Source: Escherichia phage vB_EcoM_FJ1. Taken from it: a stretch of DNA of 64,000 nucleotides. A model generated the notes under the pieces. The model did no database searches. It was not told the DNA's origin and was given only the letters and a program-made list of their open reading frames with translations. Positions 24,321-27,706 of the stretch are shown in pieces. Both the position numbers and the translations under genes were made by a program. The stretch lies in sequence record MZ170040.1, one strand, 5' to 3'. How positions within the stretch are numbered: position 1 is the stretch's first letter; each line of letters begins with the position of its first letter.

Positions 24321-24348
24321 TCAAAATGAAGAAAGGGGCCGAAGCCCC
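24321..24348 (-). terminator. intrinsic terminator after hoc
   Basis: On minus strand GGGGC-UUCG-GCCCC followed by TTTCTTCATTTT. Confidence 0.6.
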
Positions 24349-24354
24349 TTATGA

Positions 24355-26349
24355 TTATGGATAGGTATAGATGATACCAGTTTCTAAAGCAGTTTTATGA
24401 ATGATGTATCCATTACGCGATTCTTGGACATCAACTTCTGGATAGTCTTTCATCATCTTCTGAAGAGTGTAACGATGCAGGTAGTATTTACTATCTGGAT
24501 CGTCAGTTTTCCAATCTTTACCTTCTTCGGTCATTTTTTGGATTTCATCCATAACCCACCAACCGCACCAGATGTAAGCTGAAGTGCGATGTGGAAGAGG
24601 ATGAACATAAGGCAATTCACCTTCTGGTTCTGGAGCAACTTTATCAGTTACCTGAACTTGACCTTCTGCTGTGATAGTTTTGCTATCATAATCAGTAGCA
24701 GTAACAGTTGCAGTAACTTCAATAGTTTGACTTCCAATAGATGATGTATCAACAGTGTATACATTAGTTGACCCTTCTACTGGAGAAGAATCTTTCTTCC
24801 ATGAATATTCGATTTGTGCTTCTTCTGGAGCATCCGTAACATTAGCAGTAAATGTAGCCGAAGCATCTTGCTGAACGTTAATAGAAGGAGGAGTCAATGT
24901 AACCCGTGGATTCATTGTTTTCTTATTAACAGTCAATGATACTTCATTAGAAGTAACTTCCTTTTCATTGTAATTTTCTGCAGTTACTTGCGCTACACAC
25001 TTAACTGTTTTAGCTCCAACTGTGGTAGGAGTATAGTTAAATGTAGTAGTAGTTTCTCCATCGACCAGAGAACCGTCAACATACCACTGATACGTAGCAG
25101 ACGCTCCTGGTGGCTGTGAAGCCAAGGCAGCAGTAAATTGAACTGGGGTTCCAATTACTGCTGCAGCAGGATTAGCAGGAGTTACGGCTAACGTAGTTGT
25201 CTGTGTTTTCTTATTAACTGTTAATGATACTTCATTAGAAGTAACTGTTTTTGCGTCATAATCTGTTGCTGTTACTTGCGCTACACATTTAATTCTTTTT
25301 ACTCCACTTGTAGTTGGAGTATAGCTAAATGTAGCAGAAGTCGCTTCACCAATTTGAGAATCATCTACATACCACTGATACGTAGCAGATGCCCCATCAG
25401 GTTGAGAAGCTAAGGCAGCAGTAAATTCAACGGCTGTTCCAATTACTCCTGCTGGAGGACTATCAGGAGTTACAGATAGGGTAGTCGTTTGTGTTTTCTT
25501 GTTAACAGTCAAAGATACTTCATTCGAAGTAACTTCCTTTTCATTGTAATTTTCAGCAGTTACTTGGGCTACGCATTTAATTCTTTTAACCCCACTTGTA
25601 GTTGGAGTGTAATTGAACGTAGCATTAGTTTCTCCACCAACTTGTGAATCATCTACATACCACTGATACGTAGCAGATGCTCCTAGCGGCTGCGAAGCTA
25701 AGGCAGCAGTAAATTGAACTGGGGTTCCAATTACTCCTGCTGGAGGACTATCAGGAGTTACTGCCAAAGTAGTCGTCTGCGTCTTTTTATTAACAGTCAG
25801 TGATACTTCATTAGAAGTAACGCTTAGTGTATCATAATCTGCCGCAGTTACTTGAGCTACACACTTGATTTTTTTAACTCCGCTTGTGTCAGGAGTGTAA
25901 TTGAATGTAGCGTCAGTTGCTTCGTCTACAGGAGAACCGTCAACGTGCCATTGATACGTAGCGTTTGCACCTGATGGCTGTGAAGCTAAGGCAGCGGTAA
26001 ATTGAACTGGGGTTCCAATCACTCCAGCATCAGGGCTACCAGGAGTTACTGCCAACGTAGTTGACTGAGTTTTATTTTGAACTGTGATAGTTGTACTAAT
26101 TTCAGCTGTTTCAGGTTCAGATTCTGCAACTTGATTGGTTGCAACTACTTTAATAGTCTTTTGACCGGCAGGTCCTTTTAGTACATAACTAAAAGTTGCT
26201 GACGTTTCTTCCTGTGGAGCGTCGTCTACAGTCCAAGCATATGTAATAGGTCCATCTCCAGTTTGACCACTGGGTGTAGCAGTAAACTGCTGAGTCTGAT
26301 CTATAACTCCAGTAGGTGTTTTAGGAGTTATATCAACTGTAAAAGTCAT
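24355..26349 (-). CDS. hoc: highly immunogenic outer capsid protein Hoc, expanded form with extra Ig-like domains
   Basis: 664 aa; N- and C-terminal regions recognised as Hoc; internal 4 x 96-aa tandem units. Confidence 0.9.
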   Translation of the reverse strand: MTFTVDITPKTPTGVIDQTQQFTATPSGQTGDGPITYAWTVDDAPQEETSATFSYVLKGPAGQKTIKVVATNQVAESEPETAEISTTITVQNKTQSTTLAVTPGSPDAGVIGTPVQFTAALASQPSGANATYQWHVDGSPVDEATDATFNYTPDTSGVKKIKCVAQVTAADYDTLSVTSNEVSLTVNKKTQTTTLAVTPDSPPAGVIGTPVQFTAALASQPLGASATYQWYVDDSQVGGETNATFNYTPTTSGVKRIKCVAQVTAENYNEKEVTSNEVSLTVNKKTQTTTLSVTPDSPPAGVIGTAVEFTAALASQPDGASATYQWYVDDSQIGEATSATFSYTPTTSGVKRIKCVAQVTATDYDAKTVTSNEVSLTVNKKTQTTTLAVTPANPAAAVIGTPVQFTAALASQPPGASATYQWYVDGSLVDGETTTTFNYTPTTVGAKTVKCVAQVTAENYNEKEVTSNEVSLTVNKKTMNPRVTLTPPSINVQQDASATFTANVTDAPEEAQIEYSWKKDSSPVEGSTNVYTVDTSSIGSQTIEVTATVTATDYDSKTITAEGQVQVTDKVAPEPEGELPYVHPLPHRTSAYIWCGWWVMDEIQKMTEEGKDWKTDDPDSKYYLHRYTLQKMMKDYPEVDVQESRNGYIIHKTALETGIIYTYP
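24925..26076 (-). repeat. four in-frame tandem 288-bp repeats inside hoc, each encoding one Ig-like domain
   Basis: Protein units begin NK(K)TQ(S/T)TTL and end SNEVSLTVN at residues 92, 188, 284, 380; 288-bp periodicity visible in DNA. Confidence 0.85.
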
Positions 26350-26358
26350 AAGTTATCC

Positions 26359-27039
26359 TTATTTTAATGTTACGAAAGAAGAATTGCGTGTTTCACGAAT
26401 TAAAACTGATCCGTCACGGTTAATGTAATAAATTAAGCTAAATAAAGTTTGGTGTGCTGACGCATGCTCAAAACTAGTTGGGTGAGATTTCCAATCCGGA
26501 GTTTCAGCAATCCATTGATAAATCCACCAAGGAACAGTGCAGAATCCTGGATTTTTTCCAATCAACTGAAGATTAGGACTAAAGTTTTCCGGAAGAGTAA
26601 ATACAGACGGCTTTTCAGATTCAATAATCTCAGCTACAGCCTGTTCAAACTTTTCTTCAACAAAGGGAGTATCTTCAATCAAAACTGAAGTATTTTCAGG
26701 AATTTTATCCGTTTCTACTACTTCAATTTTAATGTCAGATTTAACCGGAGAATCAATCAGAAGTGCTGCTTCTGGATTGACTTCTTCATCGTCATATTTT
26801 AACCCCTCTGCAGCATCAGCAGCATCAATTAAGTCTTTAATAGATAACCCATCAGTCTCTGGCATAGGTTCACTAGCAAGCTTCTGGAGGGCTTCTTCAA
26901 TATCAACAACGATATTATCAAAAGATTTATTCTTTTTGACCTTTATACCAAACTGTTCAGCATATTCAGCTAATTTAGCTTTAGCTTCTTTATTATCATC
27001 AAGAGCCTTCAGCTCTGCAATATAATCTTTATCTATCAT
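26359..27039 (-). CDS. inh: inhibitor of prohead protease gp21
   Basis: 226 aa, matches T4 Inh length and position next to hoc. Confidence 0.85.
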   Translation of the reverse strand: MIDKDYIAELKALDDNKEAKAKLAEYAEQFGIKVKKNKSFDNIVVDIEEALQKLASEPMPETDGLSIKDLIDAADAAEGLKYDDEEVNPEAALLIDSPVKSDIKIEVVETDKIPENTSVLIEDTPFVEEKFEQAVAEIIESEKPSVFTLPENFSPNLQLIGKNPGFCTVPWWIYQWIAETPDWKSHPTSFEHASAHQTLFSLIYYINRDGSVLIRETRNSSFVTLK

Positions 27040-27052
27040 AATATTTCCTCAG

Positions 27053-27060
27053 TATAAATA
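27053..27060 (+). promoter_or_regulatory. late promoter-like TATAAATA upstream of segE
   Basis: Exact TATAAATA 28 nt upstream of the segE ATG. Confidence 0.45.
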
Positions 27061-27088
27061 TAGATATATTTATTACTCGGAAAATAGT

Positions 27089-27706
27089 ATGTACCACTTT
27101 GTATATGAAACAACAAATCTAATAAATGGTAAAAAGTATATAGGAAAGCACTCTACTGATGACTTGAATGATGGTTACCTTGGTTCCGGTAAGGCAATTC
27201 AGCAGGCTATAAAGAAATATGGTGAAAACAATTTCTCTAGAACAATACTAAAAGAGTTTAAAACTTCCGAAGAAGCGTACATGTATGAAGAAAAAATTAT
27301 AACTCCTGAACTAATAAAAAGCAAAAATTACTATAATATGAAACCTGGTGGAATTGGTGGAATTGTTATGACTACAGATGTTATAGCAAAGATGAAAGAA
27401 TCTTCCGCTAAAAGATTTGAAAACTCACCGGGCACGGTATTAGGTAAAACTTGTTATACTAATGGAACTAAAAATATTTTTATTAAACCTGGAGAACTTG
27501 TTCCAGAAGGATTTGTAAAAGGGATGGTTCATCCTAATAGAAAGTCCAGAAAAGGATGTAAAGTCAAACCGACTACCACAGGAACTTTTTGGGTCAATAA
27601 TGGCGCAATAAATAAATTAATACAACCAGACGGTATTATTCCCGACGGATTTATTAAAGGTCGTCTCATGAAAAGAGATTCTAAAGGCAAATTTAGTAAG
27701 GCATAA
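27089..27706 (+). CDS. segE: GIY-YIG homing endonuclease SegE
   Basis: 205 aa; GIY-YIG-type motif (VYETTNLINGKKYIGKH); position between inh and uvsW as in T4. Confidence 0.85.
   Translation: MYHFVYETTNLINGKKYIGKHSTDDLNDGYLGSGKAIQQAIKKYGENNFSRTILKEFKTSEEAYMYEEKIITPELIKSKNYYNMKPGGIGGIVMTTDVIAKMKESSAKRFENSPGTVLGKTCYTNGTKNIFIKPGELVPEGFVKGMVHPNRKSRKGCKVKPTTTGTFWVNNGAINKLIQPDGIIPDGFIKGRLMKRDSKGKFSKA

What the first reader, a model, noticed from the sequence alone, without database searches (positions are those of the whole stretch)
24925..26076. Hoc carries four tandem Ig-like domains where T4 has one
The hoc ORF (24355-26349, minus strand) encodes 664 aa. It has an N-terminal domain, then four consecutive 96-residue units each starting NK(K)TQ(S/T)TTL and ending SNEVSLTVN, then a related MNPRVTL unit and a conserved C-terminal capsid-binding region. 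As I recall, T4 Hoc is 376 aa with a single such unit; 664 minus 376 is exactly 3 x 96, so three whole Ig-like domains have been added in frame. The copies are not identical and look mosaic (copies 2 and 4 share ENYNEKEVTSNEV, copy 3 has TDYDAKTVT), which argues against an assembly artefact and for repeated unequal recombination. Hoc is a dispensable surface decoration, so a longer form would project further from the capsid and could change adherence.
Basis: partly seen in the sequence, partly recalled or inferred. Interest (0 to 1): 0.65.

Follow-up and report, generated by a model that had tools for sequence, protein, structure and literature searches.

The report
Six-domain Hoc capsid fibre allele
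This T4-like phage (Escherichia phage vB_EcoM_FJ1) carries the longest known version of the dispensable capsid fibre protein Hoc, with four old tandem copies of its middle Ig-like domain; related phages carry zero to four copies, so this is a rare allele of a known protein, not a new invention.

Summary
The hoc ORF (24355-26349, minus strand) encodes 664 aa and contains four in-frame 288-nt units, exactly 3 x 96 aa more than T4 Hoc. The units are only 74-84% identical at nucleotide level, so this is not an assembly artefact.

The interpretation needs correcting:
- T4 Hoc has three Ig-like domains, not one. This Hoc has six: D1, four D2-type units (A-B-C-D) and D3.
- The units were not recently added. 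Paralog dS is 0.54-1.3, and each unit has a 97-100% identical counterpart in other phages.
- The same A-B-C-D order occurs in slur03/08/14 and Sfk20.
- Tequatrovirus hoc genes carry 0, 1, 2, 3 or 4 units. All 38 typable multi-unit proteins are ordered subsets of A-B-C-D.

Two phages share this hoc backbone. In Kelasse, D1 and D3+C-terminal domain are 100% identical at nucleotide level; in vB_Eco_Geo they are 100% and 99.6%. Both carry chimeric B/D or A/D junction units. These are the footprints of deletion by unequal recombination.

The exact protein is already in GenBank (QYW00228.1). Variable Ig-domain number in Hoc homologs is published. This is a rare long allele of a known kind, and it offers a natural length series for testing mucus adherence.

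The parts
24355..26349 (-). hoc ORF, 664 aa, 70.9 kDa, pI 4.5. Identical to QYW00228.1 of Escherichia phage vB_EcoM_FJ1.
26074..26349 (-). Ig-like domain 1 (aa 1-92).
   Evidence: Aligns to T4 Hoc 1-92. Weak hit of the unit HMM, 33 bits. All-beta with pLDDT about 85-93.
25786..26073 (-). D2-type unit A (aa 93-188).
   Evidence: 100% identical units occur in three-unit Hocs, 97% in one-unit Hocs.
25498..25785 (-). D2-type unit B (aa 189-284).
   Evidence: 99% identical units occur as the sole unit of some one-unit Hocs.
25210..25497 (-). D2-type unit C (aa 285-380).
24922..25209 (-). D2-type unit D (aa 381-476).
   Evidence: 100% nucleotide identity to slur03 unit 4.
24646..24921 (-). Ig-like domain 3 (aa 477-568, KTMNPRVTL...).
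   Evidence: Aligns to T4 Hoc 189-280. Pfam Ig_3/I-set hits at 481-565.
24358..24645 (-). C-terminal capsid-binding domain (aa 569-664).
   Evidence: One substitution against T4 Hoc residues 281-376. All gp23-contact residues named in PMC10385173 are conserved.
24333..24350 (-). Intrinsic terminator-like hairpin directly after the hoc stop codon.
26356..26360 (-). AAGGA ribosome-binding site. It overlaps the stop codon of the upstream inh gene.
26359..27039 (-). inh (prohead protease inhibitor), the upstream neighbour as in T4.
   Evidence: annotation of syntenic loci
27089..27706 (+). segE-like GIY-YIG homing endonuclease gene, 740 nt from hoc.
   Evidence: Present in T4, ESh16 and FriedrichMiescher; absent in slur03, Sfk20, Kelasse and Geo.

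Best explanation
This is the hoc gene of a Tequatrovirus. Its product has six Ig-like domains (D1, four paralogous D2-type units A-B-C-D, D3) followed by the conserved capsid-binding domain.

The four-unit array is real, intact and under purifying selection. It is the longest allele of a copy-number polymorphism (0-4 D2 units) that segregates in T4-like coliphages. The duplications are old. Present-day diversity comes mainly from unequal homologous recombination between the units. That process deletes whole units in frame and leaves chimeric junction units. In-register recombination also shuffles unit alleles between backbones.

Inferred, not shown: the C-terminal domain should seat the protein on gp23 hexamers as in T4. 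The fibre should then be roughly 30 nm long instead of about 18 nm. It would present four D2 units per molecule, and with 155 Hoc copies per T4 capsid that is 620 per capsid. This should change reach and valency for weak glycan or cell-surface binding.
For: Identity of the gene:
- The alignment to T4 Hoc is 1:1 outside the array, and the capsid-contact residues are conserved.
- Synteny is inh-hoc-24.3-24.2-rnlB.
- Pfam gives PKD and Ig hits.
- The AlphaFold model shows six all-beta domains with pLDDT 85-95 over residues 1-570.
- The top Foldseek matches are multi-Ig-domain proteins.

The array is real:
- Units are 74-84% identical at nucleotide level, and the longest shared in-register tract is 38 nt.
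- The genome was assembled from 2 x 300 nt MiSeq reads (PMC10035155).
- Independent genomes slur03/08/14 and Sfk20 have the same 1995-nt gene.

The duplications are old and the units are constrained:
- dS between units is 0.54-1.32 and dN/dS is 0.11-0.31.
- FJ1 and Sfk20 positional orthologs have dS 0.15-0.51.
- Units cluster by position, with bootstrap 94, 79 and 83 for A, B and C.
- The T4 unit is closer to unit C (dS 0.33) than C is to its own paralogs (0.58-1.32).

The polymorphism:
- GenBank hoc genes span 843, 1131, 1419, 1707 or 1995 nt.
- F2 Hoc has 0 units and RB69 Hoc has 2.
- The 38 typable multi-unit proteins are AB, AC, AD, BD, CD, ABC, ABD, ACD or ABCD. None is out of order and none repeats a type.
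- One-unit Hocs of type A and type D have 99% identical D1 and 97% identical D3, but their units are only 81% identical.

Deletion footprints:
- In Kelasse, D1 and D3+C-terminal domain are 100% identical to FJ1 at nucleotide level. Its second unit shows 42 B-state sites followed by 3 D-state sites.
- In vB_Eco_Geo, D1 is 100% identical. In the first 111 nt of its single unit, 14 of 19 informative sites are A-state. In the remainder, 41 of 41 are D-state.
Against: - Whether T4's single unit is itself a reduction is supported only moderately. The evidence is the dS argument and a 72% bootstrap. Recombination and gene conversion can distort both.
- First-position unit types e, f and g are mosaics that cannot be assigned cleanly. 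The 'always in order' statement therefore holds only for units at least 90% identical to the FJ1 types.
- One chimera, type i (D 5' part joined to C 3' part), is not a simple deletion product.
- Support for the D clade is low.
- No virion, expression or binding data exist for this Hoc. The published FJ1 paper does not mention Hoc.
- The model's C-terminal domain has low confidence.
- The copy-number census rests on 120 listed rows out of 656 records, plus protein clusters.
Confidence: 0.8

Rival explanations
1. Recent in-frame expansion in this phage: three D2 domains were added to a T4-like one-unit hoc by repeated unequal recombination.
For: 664 - 376 = 3 x 96 aa. One-unit Hoc is the commonest form in databases. 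RB69's two units are equidistant from units A-D, so the A-D radiation did arise by duplication within the Tequatrovirus-type lineage at some time.
Against: Paralog dS of 0.54-1.32 exceeds the dS of flanking domains between FJ1 and T4, slur03 or Sfk20, which is about 0.3-0.4. Each unit has 97-100% identical counterparts elsewhere. The same ordered array occurs on divergent backbones: Sfk20 units are 85-95% identical to FJ1's at nucleotide level, position for position. Recent expansion would produce repeated or chimeric unit types, and none is seen in FJ1.
Confidence: 0.07
2. Allele stacking: the array was built by out-of-register recombination between co-infecting phages that carried different single-unit alleles (A-only, B-only, D-only). 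In that case the long form is derived, but its parts are old.
For: Units A, B and D do occur as sole units in one-unit Hocs. Recombination in T-even co-infections is frequent (established knowledge). FJ1's own hoc is mosaic: D1 is 100% identical to Kelasse and Geo but only 86% to slur03, while units B-D and D3 are 97-100% identical to slur03.
Against: Stacking has no reason to preserve order, yet no array is out of order. For the nine distinct architectures, a random-order probability is about 6e-6 if they are treated as independent. Type C appeared as a sole unit in none of the 75 one-unit proteins in the first typing, and in only 3 by nearest-type assignment. One-unit A and D forms share near-identical D1 and D3, which fits retention of different paralogs from one array. 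The A/D and B/D chimeras can only derive from arrays that already held both parents.
Confidence: 0.1
3. Assembly artefact: a short-read assembler inflated a one- or two-unit repeat.
For: The genome was assembled from Illumina reads only. Tandem repeats are a classic source of such errors.
Against: Units differ at 16-26% of nucleotide positions, and the longest shared in-register tract is 38 nt against 300-nt reads. The ORF is intact with dN/dS well below 1. Three independent sequencing projects report the same architecture.
Confidence: 0.02

Closest known systems
T4 Hoc (376 aa; PDB 5vf3, 8t1x; Fokine et al. 2023, PMC10385173)
   Same: D1, D3 and the capsid-binding domain are collinear. The C-terminal 96 aa differ at one residue, and the contact residues Y293, H295, H299, R300, Y304, W306, W309, W310, D313 and E355-G359 are conserved. 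The gene neighbourhood is the same. Both proteins are acidic (pI 4.5 against 4.7).
   Different: T4 has one D2 unit and this protein has four. That makes six Ig-like domains against three, and 70.9 kDa against 40.4 kDa. D1 is only about 85% identical at nucleotide level.
664-aa Hoc of Escherichia phages slur03/slur08/slur14 and Shigella phage Sfk20
   Same: Identical architecture and length, with units orthologous position for position. Overall nucleotide identity is 96.8% and 91.7%.
   Different: D1 is a different allele (about 86% nucleotide identity). Unit 1 of Sfk20 is a mosaic type f. These proteins are annotated only as 'PKD domain protein' or 'Hoc-like head decoration'. I found no paper that describes the array.
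Shorter Tequatrovirus Hoc alleles: F2 (280 aa, 0 units), Kelasse (472 aa), ESh16 (568 aa), vB_Eco_Geo (376 aa)
   Same: Same gene. In Kelasse and Geo the same backbone at 99.6-100% nucleotide identity.
   Different: They lack one to four units. Kelasse and Geo carry B/D and A/D chimeric junction units.
RB69 Hoc (471 aa) and Serratia phage Muldoon Hoc (1174 aa, 10 Ig-like domains; PMC10385173)
   Same: Strings of more than three Ig-like domains on the same capsid-binding domain. The RB69 C-terminal domain is about 96% identical at nucleotide level.
   Different: RB69's two middle units are only 40-53% identical to units A-D and to each other. I did not examine Muldoon.
Tandem-domain bacterial surface proteins with repeat-number variation (for example group B streptococcal alpha C/Rib, staphylococcal SasG/Aap). 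Comparison from general knowledge.
   Same: Whole-domain, in-frame repeats in an exposed, immunogenic, non-essential surface fibre. Copy number changes by unequal recombination.
   Different: Those repeats are usually near-identical at DNA level and vary within strains. Here the units are 74-84% identical and each type is individually conserved.

Membership tests
Hoc (highly immunogenic outer capsid protein) of T4-like phages | C-terminal capsid-binding domain homologous to T4 Hoc 281-376, with conserved gp23-contact residues | tested here: met
   phmmer to 5vf3_Z gave E = 6.6e-207. Residues 568-664 against T4 280-376 differ at two positions (A281D in the linker, S301T). The ESRNG loop and aromatic contacts are intact.
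Hoc (highly immunogenic outer capsid protein) of T4-like phages | N-terminal string of Ig-like (PKD/I-set type) domains | tested here: met
   Pfam PKD (68.6 bits, 4 stretches), Ig_3, PKD_4 and BiPBP_C. The AF2 model shows six beta-sandwich repeats with pLDDT 85-95. Foldseek hits are multi-Ig proteins.
Hoc (highly immunogenic outer capsid protein) of T4-like phages | Conserved genomic position (inh - hoc - 24.3 - 24.2 - rnlB, next to uvsW) | tested here: met
   and the annotated syntenic loci
Hoc (highly immunogenic outer capsid protein) of T4-like phages | One monomer bound at the centre of each gp23 hexamer; dispensable for growth | not testable with these tools
   Needs virion proteomics or cryo-EM and a knockout.
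Copy-number-variable tandem-domain surface protein (unequal-recombination repeats) | In-frame tandem repeats, each one a whole domain | tested here: met
   Four 288-nt (96-aa) units, each a complete HMM match 1-96.
Copy-number-variable tandem-domain surface protein (unequal-recombination repeats) | Copy number differs between close relatives on the same backbone, with chimeric junction repeats | tested here: met
   0-4 units across Tequatrovirus. Kelasse and Geo carry chimeras on backbones 99.6-100% identical at nucleotide level.
Copy-number-variable tandem-domain surface protein (unequal-recombination repeats) | Repeats near-identical at DNA level (homogenised by concerted evolution) | tested here: not met
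   74-84% nucleotide identity and dS 0.54-1.32. Units cluster by position and not by genome.
Mucus-adherent (BAM-type) phage decoration | Binding of Ig-like domains to mucin glycans | not testable with these tools
   Sequence only. The S-L-T motif reported as the MUC2-binding site of PNJ-9 Hoc domain 2 (PMC11853027) is present in all four units. However, D2 of PNJ-6 Hoc did not bind MUC2 (PMC11150434).

The most novel reading that the evidence does not exclude
The hoc D2 array may work as a population-level length and valency rheostat. An ancient ordered set of four individually conserved Ig-like cassettes would be repeatedly trimmed, and re-assorted, by unequal recombination in co-infections. 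T-even phages would then tune how far the Hoc fibre reaches and how many glycan-binding or antigenic modules it shows. T4's familiar three-Ig Hoc would be a reduced derivative and not the prototype.
Probability: 0.25. Interest if true: 0.55.

Novelty: new member of a known kind. Interest (0 to 1): 0.35.

Why it matters
Hoc is the model protein for phage adherence to mucus and the main display scaffold of T4 nanoparticle vaccines. Nature already provides an allelic series of 0 to 4 middle domains. Some members sit on identical or near-identical backbones (FJ1, Kelasse, vB_Eco_Geo). That gives a ready-made test of whether fibre length and domain valency change mucus retention, aggregation or antibody recognition.

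It also cautions against treating T4's 376-aa Hoc as the ancestral architecture. FJ1 is being developed against pig enterotoxigenic E. coli, so its capsid surface is of practical interest.

As a discovery it is modest. The protein is already deposited, and variable Ig-domain number in Hoc homologs is published.

Tried and rejected
- IMG/VR scans for arrays with three or two unit-to-unit junctions found nothing. A control pattern showed the collection holds only about four Tequatrovirus contigs. These scans therefore say nothing about frequency.
- Foldseek with the whole elongated model returned generic multi-Ig proteins at low TM-score. It confirms the fold class only. RB49 Hoc was not among the top 50.
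- Classifying every unit by its nearest FJ1 unit produced apparent 'cB' order violations. These turned out to be the mosaic first-position types e and f, which are about 86% identical to both A and C. I therefore restricted the order test to units at least 90% identical to an FJ1 type.
- No perfect T4 late promoter (TATAAATA) lies on the minus strand upstream of inh-hoc. I left transcription unresolved.
- Literature searches for a description of the tandem D2 array found none. Sathaliyawala 2010 is not held. 'T4_ev151', which has a three-unit Hoc, could not be traced to a description.
- I considered gene conversion with concerted evolution and rejected it as the main process, because units cluster by position.

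Full report
**Observation**

The ORF at 24355-26349 on the minus strand encodes 664 aa. Tandem Repeats Finder reports a 288-nt period with 4.0 copies, 79% matches and score 1321 at 24916-26073.

In protein terms the units are aa 93-188, 189-284, 285-380 and 381-476 (window 25786-26073, 25498-25785, 25210-25497 and 24922-25209). Each ends in VTSNEVSLTVNK.

T4 Hoc from the PDB (5vf3_Z, 376 aa) aligns residues 1-190 to query 1-190 and residues 177-376 to query 465-664. The extra length is therefore exactly 3 x 96 aa.

**What the window is**

The protein is identical to QYW00228.1, a 'hypothetical protein' of Escherichia phage vB_EcoM_FJ1. The surrounding 24 kb is 96.5-97.1% identical to many Tequatrovirus genomes.

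Neighbours follow T4 order:
- rnlB, 24.2 and 24.3 (DUF2774) lie downstream.
- inh lies directly upstream.
- A segE-like GIY-YIG gene and uvsW follow beyond inh.

hoc has an AAGGA ribosome-binding site overlapping the inh stop codon and a strong hairpin terminator immediately after its own stop.

**Domain count**

T4 Hoc has three Ig-like domains plus a capsid-binding domain (PMC10385173). An HMM built from the four units scores them at 180-193 bits. It also detects D1 and D3 at about 30 bits in every Hoc tested.

The correct comparison is therefore six Ig-like domains here against three in T4. The middle (D2) type is present four times against once.

Supporting evidence for the fold:
- Pfam calls PKD and Ig domains.
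- An AlphaFold2 model built on 35 homologs is all-beta with pLDDT 85-95 through residue 570, in six repeated sandwiches. The C-terminal domain is poorly modelled.
- That C-terminal domain differs from the solved T4 domain at one residue, and every gp23-contact residue listed by Fokine et al. is conserved.
- Foldseek against the PDB returns multi-Ig proteins such as CEA, PirB, MDGA1 and Dscam.

**Not an artefact**

- The units are 74-84% identical in DNA, and the longest in-register identical tract is 38 nt.
- FJ1 was assembled from 2 x 300-nt MiSeq reads (PMC10035155).
- The frame is intact, and dN/dS between units is 0.11-0.31.
- Independent genomes carry the same 1995-nt gene: slur03/08/14 at 96.8% and Sfk20 at 91.7%.

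**How common it is**

Of 656 phage records with a match, hoc spans fall into five classes: 843, 1131, 1419, 1707 and 1995 nt.

A systematic 60-row sample of the ranking gave these counts among 55 complete Tequatrovirus-type genes (my tally):

| D2 units | Genes in sample |
|---|---|
| 0 | 4 |
| 1 | 28 |
| 2 | about 22 |
| 3 | 0 |
| 4 | 1 |

In the 15-billion-protein collection, the only 664-aa sequences I could find are FJ1, the slur03 group and Sfk20. Nothing longer of this type appeared. Other lengths I checked directly:
- F2 Hoc (280 aa) is D1-D3-C with no D2 unit.
- RB69 Hoc (471 aa) has two divergent middle units.

**Age and history of the units**

Each FJ1 unit has 97-100% identical counterparts in other phages, including as the only unit of some 376-aa Hocs. 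Clustering 213 units gives types that I named A, B, C and D after the FJ1 units, plus mosaic types e-j.

Synonymous divergence supports old duplications:
- dS between FJ1 units is 0.54-1.32.
- dS between positional orthologs of FJ1 and Sfk20 is 0.15-0.51.
- dS for D1 between FJ1 and T4, slur03 or Sfk20 is about 0.30-0.36.
- The T4 unit is closer to unit C (dS 0.33) than C is to its own paralogs.

In a neighbour-joining tree rooted on the RB69 units, units group by position (A 94%, B 79%, C 83% bootstrap) and not by phage. The T4 unit is nested inside the radiation at 72%.

The duplications therefore predate the sampled allele diversity. They were not added recently in this phage.

**Order and deletion footprints**

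Among 38 distinct multi-unit proteins whose units are all at least 90% identical to an FJ1 type, the architectures are as follows:

| Architecture | Proteins |
|---|---|
| AB | 10 |
| AC | 3 |
| AD | 8 |
| BD | 1 |
| CD | 2 |
| ABC | 1 |
| ABD | 1 |
| ACD | 10 |
| ABCD | 2 |

Every one is an ordered subset of ABCD, and none repeats a type.

One-unit Hocs of type A and type D have 99% identical D1 and 97% identical D3, yet their units are only 81% identical. They have kept different paralogs of one array.

At nucleotide level, two phages show breakpoints:
- **Kelasse.** D1 and D3+C-terminal domain are 100% identical to FJ1. Across the 45 B/D-informative sites, its second unit reads B at the first 42 and D at the last 3. 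The switch falls in a 29-nt tract shared by B and D.
- **vB_Eco_Geo.** D1 is 100% and D3+C 99.6% identical. Its single unit is A-state at 14 of 19 informative sites in the first 111 nt. It is D-state at 41 of 41 in the remainder.

These are the products expected from unequal crossing-over between units B and D, or A and D, of an ABCD-type array. They cannot be precursors of it.

FJ1's own gene is also mosaic. Its D1 matches Kelasse and Geo (100%) but not slur03 (86%). Units B-D and D3 match slur03 at 97-100%. In-register recombination therefore shuffles alleles as well.

**Mechanism and function**

Shown:
- It is a bona fide hoc gene with an intact capsid-binding domain.
- The array consists of four constrained paralogous domains.
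- Copy number varies among relatives through homologous recombination between units.

Inferred:
- The protein should bind hexamer centres as in T4, where there are 155 copies and the fibre is about 180 Å long (PMC10385173).
- Three extra Ig domains should lengthen the fibre to roughly 30 nm and quadruple the number of D2 modules.
- It stays acidic (pI 4.5), in line with the dispersal role proposed for Hoc.
- The S-L-T residues reported as the MUC2/fucose-binding site of PNJ-9 Hoc domain 2 (PMC11853027) are present in all four units.
- Against this, domain 2 of PNJ-6 Hoc did not bind MUC2 (PMC11150434). Any gain in adherence is therefore a hypothesis.

**Comparison with what is known**

Fokine et al. 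(2023) surveyed 650 Hoc homologs. [quoted passage not shown] A two-Ig 'variant Hoc' has also been studied.

I found no paper that describes the tandem D2 array of Tequatrovirus, its 0-4 polymorphism or the ordered cassette pattern. The FJ1 paper does not mention Hoc.

The feature is therefore a rare long allele of a well-known protein family whose domain number is known to vary. The population pattern is a modest new observation.

**Verdict**

The novelty class is new member of a known kind, and interest is 0.35.

Noticed in passing
window 27089-27706 (+): A segE-like GIY-YIG homing endonuclease gene lies 740 nt from hoc. It is present in T4, ESh16 and FriedrichMiescher. It is absent from Kelasse and Geo, whose hoc flanks are 99.6-100% identical to FJ1, and from slur03 and Sfk20. 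Double-strand breaks made by such an enzyme in mixed infections could promote recombination in the adjacent hoc array. This is speculation.
   Followed up: partly
L004 1501-2920 (Escherichia phage FriedrichMiescher); also hits H9, H24, H75-H77: Several two-unit hoc genes span 1418 or 1420 nt instead of 1419 and are annotated as two ORFs ('Hoc part 1/part 2', 'capsid and scaffold protein x2'). These are frameshifted hoc genes. They could be sequencing errors or real inactivation of a dispensable gene during propagation.
   Followed up: no
L007 2501-2773 (RB69 hoc 3' end); protein P0089: The capsid-binding domain of RB69 (genus Mosigvirus) is about 96% identical in DNA to FJ1, although the rest of the gene is too divergent for megablast. 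P0089 (567 aa) is a hybrid: Tequatrovirus D1 plus one Tequatrovirus-type unit, followed by RB69-type units and D3. Both point to exchange of hoc segments between genera.
   Followed up: partly
L006 1501-2343 (Escherichia phage F2 hoc): The zero-unit Hoc joins D1 directly to D3 through '...TITVNKKTMNP'. This uses the unit-end form of the linker (VNKKT) and not the D1-end form (VQNKT or VKNKT). The last unit was therefore apparently removed by recombination between the homologous C-terminal strands of D1 and of a D2 unit.
   Followed up: partly
window 27053-27060 (+) and 27040-27100 (-): A perfect T4 late-promoter box (TATAAATA) points rightward towards segE. No perfect box precedes inh-hoc on the minus strand; the nearest is AATAAATA. 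How hoc is transcribed here was not resolved.
   Followed up: no
protein P0135 (VUF55740.1, Escherichia phage T4_ev151): A phage named 'T4_ev151' carries a three-unit, 568-aa Hoc, unlike T4 itself. If it derives from T4 in an evolution or cocktail experiment, it would document a copy-number change or hoc replacement on laboratory time scales. I could not trace its origin.
   Followed up: partly
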